Assembly (NCBI GenBank): GCA_963787105.1
Contig: CAWBBU010000018.1
Location: forward strand, 64,082 to 128,081
Reading direction: 5' to 3'
Source: an uncultured Bacillota bacterium
GTDB lineage: Bacteria; Sysuimicrobiota; Sysuimicrobiia; Sysuimicrobiales; Segetimicrobiaceae
DNA length: 64,000 bases
The notes under the pieces were generated by a model. That model worked only from the letters and a program-made list of their open reading frames with translations, had not been told where the DNA came from and made no database searches. Both the position numbers and the translations under genes were made by a program. Positions 38,653 to 57,930 of the stretch are shown here, one piece after another; positions within the stretch are counted from its first letter, which is position 1, and each line of letters begins with the position of its first letter.

Positions 38653-40285
38653 TCACGCCCGGCCACTGCGGAGCCGATGCAACCGCGCCATGACCTCCGT
38701 GCCGCCCTCGCCGAAGTAGCGCGCGGTCTCGACGTAGTCCGAGTACAGGCGCTCGTACACGCCTCGCGCGCCGGCGTCCGGTCGGTACCACACCCGGTCC
38801 CTGTTCCCCATGCGCTCGACGACGCCGGTCATGTCGGAAGTCTCCTCCGCCGCCGCCACCGCGTAAATCGCCGCGCCGACCGCGGACGCATCGGGGACAC
38901 GGGCCGCGGCCACGGGGCGCCCGGTCACGTCGGCCGTGATCTGGAGCAATAGGGGGTTGCGCTCGGCCAGCCCGCCGCAGGCGTGGAGGCCCGCGATCGA
39001 CACCCCGCCCGCCTCAAATGTCTCGATGACGCGGCGGGTCCCGTATGCCGTCGCTTCCAGGAGCGCGCGATAGATCTCCGCCGGCTCGGTCGTGAGGGTC
39101 AGCCCAAGCAGCATGCCGGACAGGGTGGCATCGACCAGCGGCGTGCGACACCCGTTCCACCAGTCGAGCGCGAGCAGTCCCGACGCTCCCGGCGCGATCG
39201 CGGCCGCCTCCCGACCGAGACGCTCGAAGACGTCTTGGTCTCCGTACCGACCCGGGACGGCCGTCCGAAGAAACCAGAGGAAGATGTCGCCGACCGACGC
39301 TTGACCGGCCTCGTACCCGAACAGTCCGGGAAGGATTCCGTCCTCGACGACTCCCGAGATGCCGCGAACCGGCTGCCGCCTGGCATCGACGAGGAGATGG
39401 CAGGTCGACGTCCCCATGATCATAACGAGCTGGCCGGCCTCCGACACCCCGAGCGCGGGAACGGCCGCGTGCGCGTCGATCGTCGCGACCGCGACCGGCA
39501 CGCCGCTGTTCAAGACCCGTCCGGTCCGCCCATGCGGGCGTGAGTCGGCCCGCGCGCGTACCGACGGGACGCGGTGACGCGGCGAGGCGATCCAGCAAGC
39601 CGGGCAGCGCGGGATCGAGTCCCCGCCAGAACTCGCGCGGAGGGTACCCGGAGTCCTTTTGCCAGTGCGCTTTGTACCCCGCCTGGCACGCGCTGCGCGC
39701 TTCGCTCCCCGTCAGTTGCCAGACGAGCCAGTCGCCGGCCTCAATCCAGCGCGCGGTAGACTGCGACACGGCGGGGGGCGCTTCGGCGAGCACTTGCCAC
39801 CCTTTGGCCCACATCCACTCCGATGAGGTCTTCCCCCCGTACCACGCAAGGAATTCACTCTCGGGCTGCGCCGCGCGATCGTTGATGCGGTCGGCATAGG
39901 GCTGCGCCGCGTGATGTTTCCAGAGCTTCGGCCATGCGTGCGGCTCGGCGGCGAACTCAGGAATCAGGCACAGGGGCGTGCCGTCCGCCGTCGTCGGCAG
40001 AACGGTGCAGGACGTACAGTCGAGCCCGATCCCGATCACATCGTCGGGGCTCCCGACGTCACCCATCGCGTGCAGCAGGCTGGCCGCGGCCTCGAGCCAG
40101 TCGCCGGGATGCTGCAACGCCCAATCAGGCGGCAGTCTCTCGGTCCCGCCGGGGAGCGTGCGGTCGATCACGCCGTGCGTGTATGGGTGCGTCGCCGTCG
40201 CGATCACGCGCCCGTCGGCCGCATCGACGAGTACCGCGCGCGCGGACTCGGTGCCGAAATCGAGGCCGATCGCGTGGCGGCCCAT
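38653..40285 (-). CDS. FGGY-family carbohydrate kinase (ribulokinase-like), one apparent frameshift
   Basis: ATG 40285: MGRHAIGLDFGTESARAVLVD... It continues in ORF 38653..39513 (VPVAVATIDAHAAVPALG...IMGTSTCHLL...GYEAGQASVGDIF...LALDWWNG.R), which is AraB-like. Break near 39510. Confidence 0.8.
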
Positions 40286-40299
40286 AGAATCGGTCCGCG

Positions 40300-41724
40300 T
40301 TATGCGAAGACCCGGTAGTCGATCCCAAACATCTTCGCGAGCCACACGAGATCCGCGACGCAGTCGCCGTACACGCCGTGGATGTGGTTGCTGTCGTACT
40401 CGGACAAAAACACGTCGGGCGCGACCCGAAACCGTGCGAACGCGTGGGGCCACACCGGCGTCGTGGCCGCCGCCTTCTCCGCGGCCACCTTCGCGGGAAA
40501 CTTCACGAACTCTCCGGGCACGATCGCGAGCCAGTACTTCCCCTGCCGGCGGGCCAGTCTCGCCAGCGTGACGGGACCCGGCGCGGCGATGTGCATCACC
40601 GACGCGCCTCCGGCCGGAAAGTACACGTCGGCGGGATAGAGGTGCACGTGCCGCAAGTTCACGCTCGGGTCGAAGGAGTGCCCGGCGAAGTACGTCGCAT
40701 GCTCGCCCGAGTTGCAGAGATCCCAGACGTCGTCGCCCGCGTCGTAGTGGCGCACATCGGCAAACAGCACGGGCGTACCGGCGATGTGCTTGAAGAGCTC
40801 CATGGTCAGCGCGCCATCGCTGTCGGCCTCGGTCGCGCAGACGATCGGATCGTGAGGGCCTTCCCAGTCGTACGGGTCATTCAGCAGCGCCTCCGCGACG
40901 TCCATCGTGGCGAAGTGGTTCGTCATCTCGGGCTGGCCTTTGATCCCGCAGAAATTACACCGCCACTCGTCCAGGATCTCCCGCACGGCGAGATACGACT
41001 TCAGCTGGCGGCGCAGCAATTCCGGTGTTAACCGTTTGCCGTCGTAGTGAATCCGTGCGCCGTTTTGCTCAAGCCATCCGATGCCCGCGTTCACGCGCGC
41101 ATCGGGCATGGCCTCGGACCGGCGGACGATCTCGTACTGGTCGATATGCTCGATGTCGATCCCGAAGTCTCGGCGCCATTGGTCGAGCGCGGGGACCGCG
41201 GTGTACATGCCCATCGACCGTCCGCCGATGAGGCCGTACACTTCACCGCGCAACCGGTTCTTGGCCATCGACGCCCGCAGGAATGACAGCACCCGCTCGA
41301 ACACCGCCGCGTCGTCGATGTCCCCCGAGATGCGGCCGTGGAACACACCGACCTGGTCGAGGCTCCCCGCGGCGGCGAGCATCGCCACGAGACCCGGATA
41401 TTTCGGGTTCACGTTGCTGAGCAGCAGAATCGGTTCGGGCACGAACTGCGCGGCGATCGCCGAGAAGTGAGGAAACGCCCAGATGCCGTAGTTGAAGATG
41501 ACGGCTTCCACGTCCTGCGCGGCGAGGTACCGCCCTTCGCGCTGCGCAAGATCCGTCGTCCATACGATCTCGCGCCCGGTCACGACGTCCCACCCGACGG
41601 CCCTGAGCCGCTCCGCGAGCCGTTCCTGGAACTGCCGCGTCAGCGGCAGTAACGACTCGTGCATGTGGCTCCGGCCGTCTGAAAACGTCAGGATGCCTAC
41701 CTTCGGACGCTTCACCGCATCCAC
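40300..41724 (-). CDS. L-fucose/D-arabinose isomerase-family protein
   Basis: Intact 474-aa ORF. KVGILTFSDGRSHMHESL and the overall pattern match the short FucI-like isomerase family. The kinase gene starts 15 nt downstream. Confidence 0.7.
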   Translation of the reverse strand: MDAVKRPKVGILTFSDGRSHMHESLLPLTRQFQERLAERLRAVGWDVVTGREIVWTTDLAQREGRYLAAQDVEAVIFNYGIWAFPHFSAIAAQFVPEPILLLSNVNPKYPGLVAMLAAAGSLDQVGVFHGRISGDIDDAAVFERVLSFLRASMAKNRLRGEVYGLIGGRSMGMYTAVPALDQWRRDFGIDIEHIDQYEIVRRSEAMPDARVNAGIGWLEQNGARIHYDGKRLTPELLRRQLKSYLAVREILDEWRCNFCGIKGQPEMTNHFATMDVAEALLNDPYDWEGPHDPIVCATEADSDGALTMELFKHIAGTPVLFADVRHYDAGDDVWDLCNSGEHATYFAGHSFDPSVNLRHVHLYPADVYFPAGGASVMHIAAPGPVTLARLARRQGKYWLAIVPGEFVKFPAKVAAEKAAATTPVWPHAFARFRVAPDVFLSEYDSNHIHGVYGDCVADLVWLAKMFGIDYRVFA

Positions 41725-49261: not shown

Positions 49262-49680
49262 ACTGTCTCGATGTGATCCCTTTCGCCTCTCCCAATCCGC
49301 CGCTGCCGCGCCGCTGAGCCGTCCATGGCCGAATCGCGAAACAACTCGTCGTCCATGGCAGTCGCATGGTCGTGTTATTGGACAGTGCGGCCTTCGTGAG
49401 CAATCGCTGGGTCGTCATGGCGCCGGCATCTTCTTCGGAGCGGCAGCGAGAACAGCGTCCTTGGTCTGCTGAGCAGCGACGGCCGTCGTCGTCCCGTGTG
49501 ATATGTAGCCAGCAGGCGTCAACTCGATCGTGCGCTCTTCCATCCTCCAAAAGGAGGGGATGAGGAGACCGTTTGCTACTCGTAGGTCCGGCACGACCTG
49601 CTACAATTGCGGCGCAAGGGTCGCGGGTGTACGAACGGGATCGTTGCTCCGTTATCAACCGACATAGGGGAGGGATACTG

Positions 49681-49953
49681 ATGGCCGAAAGCAAGCTTGC
49701 CGCATTGGCCCCAAAATTCAAGGAAAATCCCGGGCTGAAAGACCAGATTAAGAAGGCCACGAGCCTTGATCAGGTTGTTTCCATTATGAACTCTGCGGGT
49801 GTCCAGATCACGAAGGCCGAACTCCTCAAGTCCGAAGCGCAGAGAGTCCTCGCGCTCAGCGACGCGCAACTGGAAGCCGTTGTCGTCAGCCATAGCTATA
49901 CGACCGACACGTTTATGGGCTGCGCCACGTGGGTGTTTCAGTGCTGCGGCTGA
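49681..49953 (+). CDS. lanA: Lanthipeptide precursor with Nif11-type leader (90 aa)
   Basis: ATG 49681 (GGAGG about 10 nt upstream) inside ORF 49573..49953. Sequence: MAESKLAALAPKFKENPGLKDQIKKATSLDQVVSIMNSAGVQITKAELLKSEAQRVLALSDAQLEAVVV-SHSYTTDTFMGCATWVFQCCG. It has Nif11 leader architecture and a Ser/Thr/Cys-rich C-terminus, and sits beside lanM. Confidence 0.8.
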   Translation: MAESKLAALAPKFKENPGLKDQIKKATSLDQVVSIMNSAGVQITKAELLKSEAQRVLALSDAQLEAVVVSHSYTTDTFMGCATWVFQCCG

Positions 49954-50004
49954 TTTCTTGCCGCACGAGTTTTGAATCTGTGCGATAACGCACTGTGACG
50001 TTTC

Positions 50005-50060
50005 GAGTTGCGGGCTTCTAGCGGTCGCGTCCGTTGCGATTTTCTAGGAGCCCGCAACTC
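50005..50060. terminator. Long hairpin at the convergent lanA/lanM junction (17-bp stem, 1 mismatch, 22-nt loop)
   Basis: GAGTTGCGGGCTTCTAG (50005-50021) pairs with CTAGGAGCCCGCAACTC (50044-60), read directly. The left arm contains the lanM stop, and the right arm encodes its last residues. No clear U-tract. Confidence 0.4.
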
Positions 50061-53000
50061 AGGCAGCCTGCCAGGACGTCGACATCCTCCATCGTCAGTG
50101 AGACTAATCCAATGCCGGACGTGCCGGTAAACAGGCCCGGCAAGAAGATGTGCCCCTCCGCCGGCGAGAACAGCCGATAGGCACCACCGTGGCGCTCGGC
50201 ACGGCCAATGCGTCTCGTCAGGATCGCCTCGGCGGCAGCACCCCAGTGCGTGCCCAACCCATTGGCCGCAGCGATCTTCAAGATCGTGATTTTTCCAAAC
50301 GCTCCACAGCACACCTGATCGACCGCGACATCATCGCGTACGGTAGTGGTCAGGGCCACCTCGAGTTCCTGTTCCACCTCGGCATCCCAGAGGCATGTGT
50401 GTCGCAGGCATAGGCGTGCGAGTGCGATACCCGGAGCCCCGTGGCACCAGCTGTTCATGAACTGTGTCGAGTGTTCCGTCGTCCGGAAGTCGGGCCAATT
50501 GCCGCGTGGCGGCGAGAACTGCGAACGCTCGTAGGCCAATCCCCTCCGGGCCGACGTGAGGTACCGGGTCGCCTGGGTGGCTCGATGGAGCCTCGCGAGC
50601 GCGGCGGCGATCCCTCCGGCGCCGTGAGAGAAGCCCGTCAGAGATTTCTTCGCGTCCATACTTGGCCACGCATCATTCTCCGACTGTTGGGTCACCAGAT
50701 GGTCGCCACAGGCGCCCGCCAGCGCGAGCAGGTCGCGAGGGCTCTCTCCAGCGGCCTCTCTGACACGTGCCAACGAGAGCAGCGGTCCGACTAAGCCGGC
50801 ACAGCCGGCGATGATGTCAAGACGGTTGTCGGCGTGTATCCGCTCGACCGTAATCCGATCGGCGAGCGCATGCGCTACCGCACTATAGCTCCCAGACGGG
50901 GGCCGCAGGCCCAGCCGTTCAAGCGTCAGGAGGCTGAGGATCAGACCCCCCGTGCCCGCAAGCCCGAGTGGTTGGTCGCGAACCCAGCGAAACGCCGCAA
51001 ATGCGTCATCAGACTCCAGGGTTTCCAACACTGTTGACATCGACTGGCGGGCATCCTCACGAAGCCGCGCGGCCTCCGCGGCGTGGCCGGGATGCGCATC
51101 TAGGTGCTGTGCGAGTACCGAGAAGAACAGGGCGATGCCGCTGCGCCCGCTGTAGAGCGACGGCCCGACGATCCCAAACCGAAATCGCTCTTGATCCTCG
51201 GCGAGATCCAAGCCGAGCCACGCAGGACGACCCCGTGAACCGCGCAGAATGCGCTGTTGCAGTTGTGTCGCCAAGCGACGCGCCTCCGTCAACCGCCGCT
51301 CCTGGGAAAGCGGGCGAGCGGCTCCGCCGGTCGTCCCCACAATCCCTGGCGAGGTGGCGTCTTGACCGTCGTCGCTCGGCCGCGTGGATTGCAGCTGACT
51401 GGCCTCGATCGCACCGCGAATGAGCTGGAGCTGAAAGTCGATATCCGCCTGTTCGAGGCGCTCGACCCGTCGTCGGCTGGCAGCCAAGCCGGACGCGCGC
51501 ACGAAGCCGGGAATCGGTTCCATGCCGCCGGGAAGCCGCAGCACGTCGCTATCGATCGCCTGCTCGAAATACGGAATATCGAGCGTCTCCATCTGCCGCA
51601 GTTCTGATTCGAAGATCGGCCAGTCGAACGGTTTCTCGTTTGGAATCAGATACTGGCGGCTGAGCTGGTCCAGCTTCACGCCGCGCGCGACCGCAGTGTG
51701 TAGCGCGTCCGGCTCCAGTGCCTGCAGTTGGATGGTCGCATAGACCTGCGTGGGCCGCACCACCACGCGACGTGGAAGTCCGGCGAAACGGTCAAGAAGC
51801 GCGCCGGGCGCAAGGAGGTCGTCCTTGTGACGCAAAAAGTGCTGCATCTGCACGGCGAACCCCTCGCAGAGGGATGACGCGAACTGCTCGAACAGACCCG
51901 GCCGGGTGCCCGTGACCGGAGAGCTTGTCGGCGTTGCGGCGGGTTCGTCGACGCGTCCCCAATGCATGCGGTCGCTGTTCATCGCGACCCACCCATCCCG
52001 CGTCGTCGTCTGGTTCAGCCGCGCGACGCCGAGGGCGCTCGAATCGATGGCGCGCATGCGCCCACCGACCGCCATGAACCGCCACTGGGGCAACAAGCCG
52101 ACGCGCAAGACCGACTGCCCCAACTTCTGCCGGAGATCATCGGGGCCAGCGTCCCGCCGCTCGATCGGGTCATCTCGGTCGCCCTGCAACAGTGTTTCTA
52201 CATCGATCAGCACAAGCTGGTCGCCGTTGGCGATTACATTTTCGTTGTGGCAGTCGTTACAGCCGAGCATGTACAGCACCGCGAGAAGATGGCCCGCGTG
52301 GCGGTAGAATCTCTCGAGTTCTTGATCGCTCTCGCACGGCCGATGATCCACAAATTCCATAAACCCATAGTCCTCGACCGGCAGAACCTTGAGCACACGG
52401 AACACTGGCGCGCCGCCGAGCTCATTCAGATGATGCAGGAAGGCGTGATACGCGCGGTCGACGCCCATATGCCTCGGCTTATAGACGACCTTCCAACGGT
52501 CCCCGCACGTCGTGGAAAAGTCGCAGGACCGCCACGGACCGTCCGCCCCGGTGCGGGTCGCTCAGATTGAGATCGATCTGGCTCAGGAGCGCGTCCGGTG
52601 GGCACCCCGAAGATCTCAAAGAGCACCGCCCTGTTCTGGTGAACCCGTTCGAGCAGTTCCTGACTCGACTCGAGCCACTGATGGACCGCCGTCGACCACA
52701 CACGTCCGAGGACCGGGTACGCACTCAGGATCTCGGTCAAACCATCGCGACGGTGATGCTCGATGAACGCCAGATACTCGTCGGTCGCCGGAGGGCTGTC
52801 GTCGGGAATCTCACCGCTCAGACGCGCCAGCAACGTGCCGCCAACGCCGCGGTGCTCGGAAAATAGCTCGAACACGGCATGTTCGCCGAGACGCGCGAGC
52901 CTCTCAAGCAGGACATCCGAGAGCGCGCGAATGGCTTGCGGGGCGATCCGGTTCAGCACGGCCGGGGGCAGTCCCCGTTGCAGCAACTGCTGTGCCCAGT

Positions 53001-53388
53001 TGCCGATAGGCCGCCATAACTCCTCAAACGGTCGGCGGATCCCGTGGCGGACGGCGGCATCCCCATTCGGCGGGGGCGGTGCGTCCCTACATGCGCGGCG
53101 CAGCTGATCCAGGAGGGGCAGCCAGCACGGCTCGCCGGGCGGCGCATCCACCGGAGGGTTCACTGCCCAGGCCGCATGTTGGAGGGTGTTCCCGCACCAC
53201 TGCAGCCGCTTCTCGAAGTTGGCGCTCTGATGCGGAGCCACCGCGGCCCGCCATGCCGCCAGGCGCTCATCGTCTACCGATGTTGACCCGCACCCTCGAT
53301 CGCGGGCTTCCTGTAGCCGTTCTCGCAGCGTCCAGCCTTCGCGTATGATCAGCCGAGGGCTCGCGGGCTCCAGATCTAACCGGCCCAT
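50018..53388 (-). CDS. lanM: Class II lanthipeptide synthetase LanM (about 1120 aa), two apparent frameshifts
   Basis: N-terminus is ORF 52426..53388. A short stretch lies in ORF 52479..52724 (LLSQIDLNLSDPHRGGRSVAVL). The rest is ORF 50018..52468 (WKVVYKPRHMGVD..., DCHNENVIANG, VLIDVETL dehydratase motifs). LanC-like cyclase motifs are GFSHGAGGIA, NSWCHGAPGIA and VCCGAFG. Breaks are near 52590 and 52522. Confidence 0.85.
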
Positions 53389-55298: not shown

Positions 55299-56172
55299 CT
55301 AGGCGAGCTTTACCCCGGGATAGTCGTTCTTGAACCAGCGCTTCCAAACTCCTACGTTCATGCCGGAAATATTGAACCCGCGGACCCACACATTCACCAC
55401 GCGCCACCAGTCGAAATCGCCTGCTGGCAGCCCGATACAAATGTCTTCGAAGGCCCACGATCCCGCGACGCGATATTTGCCCGGATTCTGCCGCATCTCC
55501 TCCGCAATGGAAAAACCGTCATCGGCCAGAGCGTCGATTTGCCCTCCCTGCAAAGCGAGAAACTCGTCGATATTCTTGGTGAAGACTTCAAGTTTTGCAT
55601 TCGGCAGGGTAAGCGGCACCAAGTCATAGGCCGTACCACCACGTGCAACGCCAATCTTGATGCTCGGTTTGTTCAAGTAGTCTACTTTTTGCAGATCACG
55701 CCGGCTGTTCAAGACGGCGAAATCGTTGTGGGTTGTTACGTACGGGTCACTGAATGCGATCACGGTAGAGCGTTGAACGGTATTGGTGAAGTTTGAGATG
55801 GTTATGTCCGCCTTCCCGGTCTGAAGTGCGGCCACGCGCCCGGGACCGTCCAGCTTAACCCACTCAATATTGACCTTCAGGGCTTTCGCGAACGCACCCG
55901 CGATGTCGATTTCGTATCCTTCGAACGTGCCAGCAGGAGTGAGCAGGATTTCCACGGCAGTCCATCTCCCGCCGTTGCAACGCGAAGATCGTGCCACTCT
56001 TCAGAACCCGATTGACGGCATCGGAAGTCTGTGCGTCACTGCGCGCTGCTAGCGCTCCACCAGCGACCATAGCCGCGCCAGCACCCAGACCCACAGGAGC
56101 CAGCATGCGAGATAGTCCACCGGCAACGGTCACGCCCAGCGTACGAGAGAACAAATCGCGCCGTCCGAACAT
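55299..56172 (-). CDS. Amino-acid ABC transporter substrate-binding protein (family 3), one or two apparent frameshifts
   Basis: N-terminus MFGRRDLFSRTLGVTVAGG (Tat-like) in ORF 55864..56172. A third frame reads LRVATAGDGLPW. The body is in ORF 55299..55997 (GYEIDIAGAFAKAL...GKADITISNFT...). Breaks are around 55945-55985. Confidence 0.75.
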
Positions 56173-56509: not shown

Positions 56510-57930
56510 CACCAACCCGGGGTGTTTCGGGAAGCGGGAATCCGCCGCGCGCGCGTTCGTAGATCCCCGCAACACCGAGCACGAGATCATCGTGCAGATG
56601 TCGTCCCACCGAGCTGCAGGCCTACCGGCAGACCCTCCTCGCTGAGCCCGCACGGCACCGAGACGGCGGGGTGTCCGGTGACGTTGAACATCCAAGTGTT
56701 AGCCGCGTGGAGATCTGGGGTCTCGAGCTCGCAGCCGTGCCACAGATAGGTCATCGCGCCAAGGGGCTTGGCGGTGATGGGCGTCGTCGGCAGCACGAGT
56801 AGGTCGACGCGCTCGAACAGCTCGGCATAGGCGGCGCCGATGTGCCCTGAATCTCGCTGAAACGATCCATCACTTTGCGCCGCTTGCGCCGGAGATTGGC
56901 CCTAATGTAGGCCCGGTAAGATCCCGGCGTCGGCGCCTTCCGCATCATACATTTCCCACTCGTTCAGCAGGGTGATCTCGTCCCACAACGCGATGTCGAA
57001 CATCGGAAGCCTCACCGACTCGACGAAGATGCCGGCCCCGGCACCCGCCAAACTCTCAACTGCCGCCTCCACCCGGGCACCTACGTCCGGCTCGGACCGA
57101 ACTGTCCCCCGCTCACGTCGAAGCCCAGCCGCACCGCCCCGAAGTCGGGGTGCAACACCGCAGACAACGCAGCGGGTGGCGGTGCGTCAAGGGACGTCGG
57201 GTCCAAGGGATCGCGGCCCGCGAGCACCTCTAGCATGAGCGCGGCGTCTTCGACCGTCCGCGCGAGGGGGCCGACGTGTTCGAGCGCCGTGGCCATACCG
57301 AAGACGTCGCCATGCTGGCTGACGCGACCGTAGGTCGGCTTGAGCCCGACGACGCCGGTGAACGCGGCGGGGATACGGATCGAACCGCCGAGATCGGTGC
57401 CGACGCTCCCATAGCTCGTGCCGATCGCAAGGGAGACCGCAGAGCCGCTGCTCGATCCCCCGGGCGTGTAGGTCGGGCCGCCACGGATTTCGGGCCGTGG
57501 GCAGGCGCGCGCTATCCGCGTTGGTGCGGGACATCCCGCTCCCGACGTTCGCTTTTGCGACCACGATGGCACCGGCGGCGGTCAGGCGCTGGACGCAGGT
57601 CGCGTCTTCCTGGCGAGCCGGCGCGTAGTTCGAAAGGCTCACGGTCCCGACGGTCGTGCGGGTCCCGCGCATCAAAAACGCGTCCTTCACCGTCACGGGT
57701 ACGCCGTGGAGCCGACCGAGTGGGCGGCCAAGGCTAACATCCTCATCGGCGCGGCGCGCTGCTTCGCGGGCCTCGTCGGTGGGCGCCGAGAGATGCGCAT
57801 GATGGCGGGGTCAAGCACCGCGGCACGCGCGAGACAGGTGTCCACGAGTTCGGTGGAGGACACCTCTCCGCGCCGGATCAGGTCCGCCGCGACGGCAGAG
57901 AGAACATTCGGTCCTGCGCCACCTCTTACC
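56510..57930 (-). pseudogene. Amidase-signature amidase, decayed paralogue of 25096..26523 (many frame changes)
   Basis: Fragments lie in ORFs 57187..57696 (VKDAFLMRGTRTTVG), 57081..57572 ([50 protein letters not shown]) and 56587..56796 (LPTTPITAKP...NVTGHPAVSVPCG...GLPVGLQL). By eye they are about 70% identical to the intact amidase in the signature block. Confidence 0.75.

What the first reader, a model, noticed from the sequence alone, without database searches (positions are those of the whole stretch)
49681..49953. Nif11-type leader that lacks the double-glycine cleavage motif; predicted 21-aa core ending in CCG
The leader has the expected Nif11 layout (MAESKL..F.....L...I.......VVSIMNSAGVQITKAEL....LSDAQLEAV). 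Where such leaders normally end in ...EAVAGG, this one reads EAVVV-SHS. The remaining SHSYTTDTFMGCATWVFQCCG has 6 Ser/Thr and 3 Cys, so up to three (methyl)lanthionine rings including a vicinal Cys pair. A non-GG junction fits the absence of a LanT-type peptidase and implies a different leader-removal route.
Basis: partly seen in the sequence, partly recalled or inferred. Interest (0 to 1): 0.6.

Follow-up and report, generated by a model that had tools for sequence, protein, structure and literature searches.

The report
Nif11-leader lanthipeptide precursor without double-glycine
This is a real, transcribed gene for a small ring-forming peptide (a lanthipeptide) from an uncultured peat/soil bacterium, and it belongs to a rare family that kept the usual Nif11-type leader but lost the Gly-Gly cutting signal, so its leader must be removed some other, still unknown, way.

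Summary
The ORF at 49681-49953 (+) encodes a 90-aa peptide that scores above the curated cut-off of the Nif11-leader model. The match stops 3 positions before the model's end, where Gly-Gly normally sits. The missing GG is not a sequencing error. Contigs from eight short-read runs cover the junction without indels, and nine other distinct family sequences also lack GG.

The family shows three zones:
- a moderately conserved leader (44% mean identity);
- a variable 5-6 residue linker (16%) in place of A-G-G;
- a strongly conserved core, (S)YTT[DSE]T..GC[AV]TW...CC[GP] (70%).

Between the window and a 68%-identical allele, the core has 9 synonymous and 1 replacement codon changes.

Every locus has a convergent ProcM-like LanM with CCG instead of CHG. 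The two frameshifts in the window's lanM are absent from all six other runs that cover them. Intact 1092-aa and 1109-aa orthologues exist.

The sister LanM clade (42-44% identity) pairs with canonical ...VAGG precursors. In one of the two loci examined, a C39-ABC exporter sits next to them. No C39 peptidase is found in the window or in its 65%-complete genome.

Verdict: a new variant of a known kind (N11P class II lanthipeptide). The leader-removal route is unknown and probably uses a protease encoded outside the cluster.

The parts
49668..49675 (+). Ribosome-binding site GGGGAGGG, 6 nt upstream of the lanA ATG
   Evidence: Read directly from the sequence. Homologues start at the same Met, and several have in-frame stops just upstream.
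49681..49878 (+). lanA leader, residues 1-66: a Nif11-type leader ending in ...LSDAQLEA. It keeps the L(-12)xxx[E/Q](-8)L(-7) element of double-glycine leaders.
   Evidence: TIGR03798 37.8 bits (cut-off 32.3) and PF07862 32.3 bits. Mean pairwise identity within the family is 0.44. The recognition consensus is quoted from PMC6363468.
49879..49893 (+). Variable linker, residues 67-71 (VVVSH), occupying the place of the canonical (V)AGG cleavage motif
   Evidence: Alignment with canonical N11Ps. Mean identity is 0.16. Against L004, 5 of 5 codons are replaced. Population variants V68I, H71N and H71Q are seen.
49894..49953 (+). Conserved core, residues 72-90 (SYTTDTFMGCATWVFQCCG), plus the stop codon. 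Y73, T74, T75, T77, G80, C81, T83, W84, C88 and C89 are invariant in the family.
   Evidence: mean identity 0.70. Against L004 there are 9 synonymous and 1 replacement codon differences. RNA-run contigs cover 49760-49962.
50005..50060 (.). Strong hairpin between the convergent genes, overlapping the lanM stop. It is a probable bidirectional terminator or stabiliser.
   Evidence: MFE of the 122-nt stretch is -55.2 kcal/mol, z = -4.5 against 200 shuffles. The sequence is conserved in L003.
50018..53388 (-). lanM, a class II lanthipeptide synthetase of ProcM-like CCG type. In this assembly it is read in three frames because of two extra bases near 52522 and 52603.
   Evidence: TIGR03897 620.7 bits for the 816-aa part and 43.2 bits for the N-terminal part. 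Pfam DUF4135 plus LANC_like. The two 1-nt insertions are seen relative to L003. They are absent from contigs of 6 other runs. Intact orthologues of 1092 aa and 1109 aa exist. CHG is replaced by CCG relative to LicM2.

Best explanation
lanA (49681-49953) is a functional precursor of a class II lanthipeptide. Its Nif11-type leader docks the peptide on the convergently encoded ProcM-like LanM. LanM dehydrates the invariant threonines of the core SYTTDTFMGCATWVFQCCG and adds the three invariant cysteines to them, giving up to three methyllanthionine rings.

The gene belongs to a small clade found in soil, peat and other metagenomes. In this clade the Gly-Gly cleavage and export signal of N11P leaders has been replaced by a variable 5-6 residue linker, often of the form hydrophobic-Ser-x. 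Unlike prochlorosin-type systems, the core is conserved.

Without GG/GA/GS the peptide is unlikely to be a substrate of a C39 peptidase-ABC exporter. The leader is therefore most likely removed by a protease encoded outside the cluster. This could be an endoprotease cutting in or near the linker, possibly followed by aminopeptidase trimming up to the first modified residue. Export would be by a non-dedicated route.

Shown here: Nif11 homology, absence of GG across the family, purifying selection on the core, the conserved LanM partnership, presence in RNA-derived contigs, and GG plus PCAT in the sister clade.

Inferred: the modifications themselves, the ring pattern, and the cleavage and export route.
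For: Identity of the peptide:
- HMM hits above the curated cut-offs.
- Six of seven further family members tested also pass the TIGR03798 cut-off, and each match stops at profile position 64-66 of 68.

Absence of GG:
- Nine other distinct family sequences lack it: P0002-P0007, P0046 and P0208, plus the read-derived H71N/F78Y allele.
- At least 95 of the 125 Nif11-leader peptides tallied (the query, its two close homologues and the 122 phmmer hits from 1.84 billion representatives) carry G[GAS] at that place.
- There are no indels in short-read contigs from 8 runs.

Selection:
- Mean pairwise identity is 0.70 in the core, 0.16 in the linker and 0.44 in the leader.
- The core has 9 synonymous and 1 replacement codon changes against L004.

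Partner enzyme:
- A convergent LanM C-terminus with an LCCG motif lies downstream of lanA in L003, L004, L007, L009 and L010. L006 holds only the extreme C-terminus, past that motif.
- L333 and L334 carry intact convergent LanMs with Pfam DUF4135 and LANC_like domains.
- The window's two lanM frameshifts are absent from every other data set that covers them.
- The FSHG and WCHG LanC motifs are intact and CHG is replaced by CCG relative to LicM2. CCG is described as the hallmark of ProcM-like enzymes (PMC8524650).

Expression: metatranscriptome contigs hold lanA at word depths 14.9 and 5.7, and also hold lanM.

No PCAT:
- No Peptidase_C39 in the genome.
- No NHLM-type ABC transporter above its cut-off.
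- None among the genes scanned around lanA in the window. None among the genes called within 10 kb of the L003 copy.
- The sister clade has ...AVAGG and ...NVAGG precursors, and one locus has a C39-ABC exporter, a second ABC transporter and an OEP gene beside it.

Lanthipeptide proteases encoded outside their clusters are well documented (PMC8960859).
Against: - No chemistry was tested. Dehydration, ring formation and leader cleavage are all inferred.
- The genome is a 65%-complete MAG, so the absence of a C39 transporter or a dedicated protease is weak evidence.
- All other family members sit on contigs of 0.6-5 kb, apart from L003. Loss of the PCAT could therefore be checked in only two long contexts.
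- The linker has no strictly conserved residue, so no protease site can be named.
- RNA-run contigs can contain contaminating DNA.
- The window's own lanM reads as frameshifted. If those bases are real in this strain, its copy is inactive.
Confidence: 0.72

Rival explanations
1. The leader is never removed. The modified 90-aa product acts with its Nif11-like domain attached, for example inside the cell or as a small modified protein. Loss of GG would then simply reflect loss of the need for processing and export.
For: There is no conserved cleavage motif in the linker. No protease or exporter lies in the cluster in the two long contexts. The leader itself is under moderate constraint (identity 0.44).
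Against: The constraint on the leader is equally explained by LanM recognition. The sharp boundary between variable linker and conserved core is the classic leader/core pattern. I know of no lanthipeptide shown to act uncleaved (own knowledge, not tested here).
Confidence: 0.13
2. The peptide is still processed by a peptidase-containing ABC transporter (C39/PCAT) with relaxed or altered specificity. That transporter would be encoded in the missing 35% of the genome.
For: The upstream recognition element L(-12)xxxE(-8)L(-7) of double-glycine leaders is retained (LSDAELE in most members). The MAG is incomplete. Prochlorosin-type precursors and their LanM and exporter genes are often unlinked (PMC7268733; PMC8524650).
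Against: Substrates of C39 domains typically end in GG, GA or GS (PMC6363468). Here positions -2/-1 are V-S, M-S, L-S, A-A, L-P or I-R. There is no C39 hit at E <= 1 in 2.75 Mb. GG is kept in the sister clade, where a PCAT is adjacent in one of the two loci examined.
Confidence: 0.1
3. The locus is a decaying remnant. lanM is a frameshifted pseudogene, and the GG site was lost by drift in a precursor that is no longer used.
For: lanM reads in three frames in the window. It lies in accessory DNA with mobile elements and other broken genes, such as the fragmented amidase.
Against: Both extra bases are missing from all six other runs that cover them, and from L003. L003's own frame break lies elsewhere, at a place where the window is intact. 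This is the pattern expected from assembly indel errors. Intact LanMs exist in L333 and L334. The core is under strong purifying selection. lanA and lanM sequences occur in RNA runs.
Confidence: 0.05

Closest known systems
Prochlorosin-type systems (ProcA/ProcM, SyncA/SyncM): Nif11-leader class II lanthipeptides of cyanobacteria
   Same: Both have a Nif11-type leader of about 65-70 residues ending in ...LSDxELE. The LanM carries the CCG zinc-ligand motif (PMC8524650). The closest named LanM relatives are Synechococcus enzymes at 42-43% identity.
   Different: This family has no Gly-Gly, a conserved rather than hypervariable core, and a single precursor per genome as far as can be seen. lanA is convergent with lanM rather than co-directional or dispersed. 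No C39-ABC exporter was found. The host is an uncultured, high-G+C soil/peat bacterium and not a cyanobacterium.
LahA/LahT (Lachnospiraceae) and other PCAT-processed double-glycine leaders
   Same: The leader keeps the Leu(-12)-x3-Glu(-8)-Leu(-7) element that these proteases recognise.
   Different: The GG/GA/GS site itself is replaced by hydrophobic-Ser or other pairs. No PCAT is present.
Class II lanthipeptide clusters without a cluster-encoded protease (e.g. actinobacterial clusters such as the actinopeptins, PMC13509491), which rely on proteases encoded elsewhere (PMC8960859)
   Same: Both have a minimal lanA + lanM cluster, no double-glycine site and no linked protease.
   Different: Those peptides have short, unrelated leaders. 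Here the long Nif11 leader, otherwise tied to GG/PCAT processing, is retained.
Lacticin 481 group (type AII lantibiotics). This resemblance is recalled from memory only.
   Same: The core pattern T-x-[ST]-x(2-3)-C ... [ST]-W-x(3-5)-C-C-x(end) resembles the ...T.S.EC...SW....TCCS layout of lacticin 481-like peptides. That layout would suggest one N-terminal ring and two intertwined C-terminal rings.
   Different: No Pfam family, including the type-A lantibiotic model, hits the core at E <= 10. There is no conserved Glu before the first Cys. The spacings are shorter, and the leader is of a different kind.

Membership tests
N11P (Nif11-like leader RiPP precursor, TIGR03798; Haft 2010) | Sequence homology of the N-terminal ~65 residues to the Nif11 leader model, above the curated cut-off | tested here: met
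   37.8 bits against 32.3. PF07862 32.3 against 23.8. Family members score 30.3-50.9 bits.
N11P (Nif11-like leader RiPP precursor, TIGR03798; Haft 2010) | [quoted passage not shown] | tested here: not met
   VV-S stands in place of AG-G. The motif is absent from all 10 distinct family sequences. Reads show no indel that would restore it.
N11P (Nif11-like leader RiPP precursor, TIGR03798; Haft 2010) | Hypervariable Cys/Ser/Thr/Gly-rich core after the leader | tested here: not met
   The core is rich in Thr and Cys but conserved: 0.70 mean identity and 10 invariant residues.
N11P (Nif11-like leader RiPP precursor, TIGR03798; Haft 2010) | Association with a modifying enzyme (LanM, cyclodehydratase, rSAM) | tested here: met
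   A convergent LanM gene or LanM C-terminal fragment lies next to lanA in the window and in L003, L004, L006, L007, L009, L010, L333 and L334.
N11P (Nif11-like leader RiPP precursor, TIGR03798; Haft 2010) | Association with a C39-peptidase ABC exporter (TIGR03796/03797 type) | tested here: not met
   No PF03412 hit at E <= 1. No TIGR03797 hit above its cut-off in the own genome. TIGR03796 itself was not run. None was found near lanAM in the window or in L003. Caveat: the genome is 65% complete.
Class II lanthipeptide | Bifunctional LanM synthetase (DUF4135 dehydratase domain plus LanC-like cyclase domain with zinc ligands) encoded with the precursor | tested here: met
   TIGR03897 620.7 bits. 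Pfam DUF4135 and LANC_like. The FSHG, WCHG and CCG motifs align to LicM2. The frame breaks are attributed to assembly errors.
Class II lanthipeptide | Core with Ser/Thr and Cys that are actually converted to (methyl)lanthionine | not testable with these tools
   The residues are present and invariant (T74, T75, T77, T83; C81, C88, C89). Confirming the conversion needs mass spectrometry of the modified peptide.
ProcM-like (CCG) LanM group | Cys-Cys-Gly in place of the Cys-His-Gly zinc-ligand motif | tested here: met
   Query 'qvCCGafg' aligns to LicM2 'slCHGliG'. LCCG or VCCG is present in every family LanM fragment that reaches that position.
ProcM-like (CCG) LanM group | One enzyme serving many diverse precursors | tested here: not met
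   Only one TIGR03798 hit was found in the own genome. There is one lanA per locus in all contexts seen. The genome is incomplete.
Lacticin 481-type (type AII) lantibiotics | Core sequence recognisable by the type-A lantibiotic family model | tested here: not met
   No Pfam hit for three family cores at E <= 10. The resemblance is recalled from memory only.

The most novel reading that the evidence does not exclude
This clade may have a previously undescribed way of maturing Nif11-leader peptides. A protease family not yet linked to N11P leaders would recognise the conserved leader end or the conserved SYTT start of the core, and would cut in a sequence-tolerant linker. Export would not depend on PCAT transporters. 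The product would be a new, conserved three-ring lanthipeptide scaffold from an uncultured soil/peat lineage.
Probability: 0.3. Interest if true: 0.6.

Novelty: new variant of a known kind. Interest (0 to 1): 0.45.

Why it matters
Nif11 and nitrile-hydratase-type leaders are treated in the literature as double-glycine leaders processed by C39-ABC exporters (PMC2887384, PMC6363468, PMC10885120).

This clade kept the leader and its ProcM-like synthetase but dropped the GG and, as far as can be seen, the exporter. It therefore separates the two roles of the leader: guiding the enzyme, and acting as the cleavage and export signal.

It also gives a defined substrate with which to look for a missing leader protease.

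The conserved 19-residue core is under strong purifying selection and is present in peat metatranscriptomes. That points to a specific biological activity, rather than the combinatorial diversity of the prochlorosins. It is a candidate new lanthipeptide scaffold from a lineage with no cultured members.

Tried and rejected
1. Sequencing error or frameshift hiding a GG. Rejected: no alternative frame gives GG. Eight short-read data sets show no indel. Relatives at 40-97% identity also lack GG.

2. lanM as a pseudogene. Rejected as the main reading: both extra bases are private to this assembly. The assembly also fragments the amidase gene, which is intact in L003.

3. A longer ORF from TTG 49573 (126 aa). 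Rejected: the RBS and the homologues' starts support ATG 49681.

4. Finding more family members with longer contexts:
   - The search for related loci on the family alignment failed because it had no conserved 7-10 column stretch.
   - A specific degenerate DNA pattern found nothing in genome contigs or metagenome contigs.
   - A looser pattern returned 240 loci, none with the family motif after filtering.
   - None of 60 related genomes carries the gene.

5. A retropepsin-like aspartyl protease abutting lanM in L334, considered as a family-specific leader protease. It is not conserved in L333, L003 or the window. tblastn finds no homologue in the own genome.

6. Pfam and NCBIfam searches of the core alone found no family.

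7. A literature search for the core motif found no relevant paper.

9. Naming the organism. Only 'deep, unnamed high-G+C soil/peat lineage' can be said.

Full report
**What is there.** The + strand ORF at 49681-49953 encodes a 90-aa peptide:

MAESKLAALAPKFKENPGLKDQIKKATSLDQVVSIMNSAGVQITKAELLKSEAQRVLALSDAQLEAVVVSHSYTTDTFMGCATWVFQCCG

A GGGGAGGG ribosome-binding site precedes it. The peptide passes the curated cut-offs of NCBIfam TIGR03798 (leader_Nif11, 37.8 against 32.3 bits, E = 1.6e-9) and of Pfam PF07862. The HMM match covers residues 1-67 and profile positions 1-65 of 68, so it ends just before the positions that hold Gly-Gly.

**The missing GG is not an error.**
- A 97%-identical allele from an ENA contig (L003) reads ...EAVVVSQSYTTDTF..., and a 68%-identical allele from a JGI contig (L004/L333) reads ...ESATIRNASYTTDTY....
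- Contigs assembled from eight independent short-read runs of soil and peat metagenomes cover the junction without any insertion or deletion.
- Those contigs show only substitutions: V68I, H71N, F78Y, N37K and others.

**A distinct subfamily.** A phmmer search of 1.84 billion representative proteins returned 122 Nif11-leader peptides. A tally over those 122 plus the query and its two close homologues (125 sequences) found G[GAS] at the expected place in at least 95. The top four hits, one fragment, and one more sequence found next to a LanM homologue form a subfamily without GG:

| Protein | Junction and core |
|---|---|
| P0004 | ...ELEAVSMSASYTTSTLAGCVTWVLGCCG |
| P0005 | ...ELESANLSVSYTTDTYPMGCATWVFGCCP |
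| P0006 | ...ELDAAPAAMSYTTDTLIGCVTWVAGCCG |
| P0007 | ...ELEAGRLPSRYTTETFPDVIGCVLTWPMDCCG |
| P0046 (fragment) | ...ELESAHIRMYSTDTWAGCVTWALTCTCPC |
| P0208 | ...ELEAAPVSLSYTTDTYAGCATWVFGCCP |

All members tested match TIGR03798 only up to profile position 64-66.

**Anatomy of the peptide.** Within the family, mean pairwise identity is 0.44 for the leader (residues 1-66), 0.16 for the linker (67-71) and 0.70 for the core (72-90). Y73, T74, T75, T77, G80, C81, T83, W84, C88 and C89 are invariant.

Between the window and L004:
- The core has 9 synonymous and 1 replacement codon differences.
- All 5 linker codons are replaced.
- The leader has 29 synonymous and 21 replacement differences.

This is strong purifying selection on the core and almost none on the linker. 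The boundary places the start of the conserved block at S72/Y73, not S70, so the core is 18-19 residues long.

The leader keeps the L(-12)xxxE(-8)L(-7) element of double-glycine leaders (LSDAELE in most members), as described in PMC6363468. Counting from it, positions -2/-1 are V-S, M-S, L-S, V-S, A-A, L-P or I-R. That is a hydrophobic residue, often followed by Ser, in place of G-G.

The spacing T-W-x3-C-C is fixed. The T77...C81 segment tolerates insertions of 1-3 residues.

**The partner enzyme.** A LanM gene lies 64 nt downstream on the minus strand (TIGR03897 620.7 bits; Pfam DUF4135 plus LANC_like).

In the window it reads in three frames. Alignment with L003 shows two single extra bases, at about 52603 and 52522. 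Every other data set that covers these sites lacks both bases. These are contigs of six runs, one of them a metatranscriptome. L003 has its own frame break elsewhere, at a place where the window is intact. The window also fragments an amidase gene that is intact in L003, while L003 fragments other genes. Full-length orthologues of 1092 aa (67% identity) and 1109 aa (61%) exist, each with a convergent lanA of this family. I therefore read the frameshifts as assembly errors, or at most strain-private lesions.

Alignment to LicM2 (PDB 6st5) shows intact FSHG and WCHG motifs, and CCG where LicM2 has CHG. CCG is the motif described as the hallmark of ProcM-like enzymes (PMC8524650). A convergent LanM C-terminal fragment follows lanA on every short contig checked. 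Each fragment that reaches the motif carries LCCG; L006 holds only the extreme C-terminus.

A strong hairpin at 50005-50060 (z = -4.5) separates the two genes.

**Context and evolution.**
- The next LanM clade (42-44% identity) includes Synechococcus enzymes.
- In that clade, lanA is co-directional and canonical (...ELEAVAGG......ELENVAGG...). One locus also has a Peptidase_C39-ABC transporter, a second ABC transporter and an OEP gene next to it.
- The GG-less, convergent, conserved-core arrangement therefore looks like a derived state of a prochlorosin-like system.
- The window's genome is a MAG of 2.75 Mb in 27 contigs, 65% complete. It has no Peptidase_C39 match at E <= 1 and no NHLM-type ABC transporter above its cut-off. 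It has one Nif11 leader and one LanM.
- None of the genes scanned around lanAM in the window is a protease or peptide exporter. None of the genes called within 10 kb on either side of the L003 copy is a protease or peptide exporter either.
- The left flank differs between the two strains. Homology starts about 185 nt upstream of lanA.
- None of 60 related genomes has the gene, so lanAM is a small accessory cassette.

**Expression.** Contigs from two peat metatranscriptomes cover 49760-49962 at word depths 14.9 and 5.7. They carry the H71N/F78Y/N37K allele. A permafrost metatranscriptome covers part of lanM. DNA carry-over cannot be excluded.

**Mechanism.**
- Shown: a Nif11 leader, a conserved Thr/Cys core, a dedicated ProcM-like LanM, selection, and presence in RNA-derived contigs.
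- Inferred, step 1: LanM binds the leader, dehydrates the invariant threonines and forms up to three methyllanthionine rings with C81, C88 and C89.
- Inferred, step 2: the ring layout may be one N-terminal ring plus two intertwined C-terminal rings. This rests only on a resemblance to lacticin 481 that I recall from memory.
- Inferred, step 3: C39 domains cut after GG/GA/GS (PMC6363468). Without that motif the leader is most likely removed by a protease encoded outside the cluster, cutting in or near the tolerant linker. Aminopeptidase trimming may follow. Such proteases encoded away from the cluster are documented for other lanthipeptides (PMC8960859).

Rival readings are scored lower: an uncleaved product (0.13), a PCAT with altered specificity in the missing part of the genome (0.10), and a decaying locus (0.05).

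**Novelty.** Haft et al. wrote that N11P leaders 'usually' end in Gly-Gly (PMC2887384). Later reviews treat Nif11 leaders as double-Gly/PCAT substrates. I found no paper describing this core or a GG-less Nif11 lanthipeptide clade. It is a new variant of a known kind and not a new kind of system. It is moderately interesting as a natural uncoupling of leader-guided modification from GG/PCAT processing, and as a conserved new scaffold from an uncultured lineage.

Noticed in passing
window 57081-57696 (-), also 39014-40453 and 55299-55997: The amidase gene is split over at least two frames in the window, yet it is one intact 544-aa ORF in L003. Several other genes give only partial domain hits. 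The assembly appears prone to single-base indels, so other apparent pseudogenes in this window should be treated with caution.
   Followed up: partly
P0027, P0049, P0053: There is a second, unrelated small group of Nif11-leader peptides without GG. The core starts directly after ...ELEAL/ELEDV with CC[DS]Y.SQYS.SC[NV]; P0053 reads ...ELENLSCSGW... All three score well above the TIGR03798 cut-off. Loss of GG in Nif11 leaders has therefore happened more than once.
   Followed up: partly
L334:3-641 (+): In the MAG contig carrying the 61%-identical LanM, a retropepsin-like aspartyl protease fragment (LDTGAS motif, weak PF13650 hit) ends exactly where lanM starts, on the same strand. This makes it a possible operon partner and candidate leader protease. 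It is not present next to lanM in L333, L003 or the window, and tblastn finds no homologue in the own genome.
   Followed up: partly
own genome G000:C11:89825-90855 (-): A second LanC-like cyclase domain (TIGR03897 positions 688-932, 101.8 bits, below the cut-off) lies on another contig. It may belong to a different lanthipeptide synthetase class or to a stand-alone LanC-like protein.
   Followed up: no
window 49497 / L003 ~9820: Homology between the window and the 97%-identical contig L003 begins about 185 nt upstream of lanA. To the left, the window has a sialidase-like BNR gene and a sugar-acid locus, while L003 has MlrC, aminotransferase and peptide-ABC genes. The lanAM cassette thus sits at a synteny break.
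   Followed up: partly
window 49680/49681: Contigs of three runs (X1, X2, X17) carry an extra A between the ribosome-binding site and the ATG of lanA. This is a population variant, or another assembly indel, that changes the RBS spacing by one base.
   Followed up: no
window 49813-49847 (RNA run X22, record 4): A metatranscriptome contig matches only 35 nt of the leader. Its flanks encode a different Nif11-type leader (…ILKSAGIHTS… / …LSATDAQLEV…). A related but distinct Nif11 precursor is therefore present in the RNA of the same peat sample.
   Followed up: no
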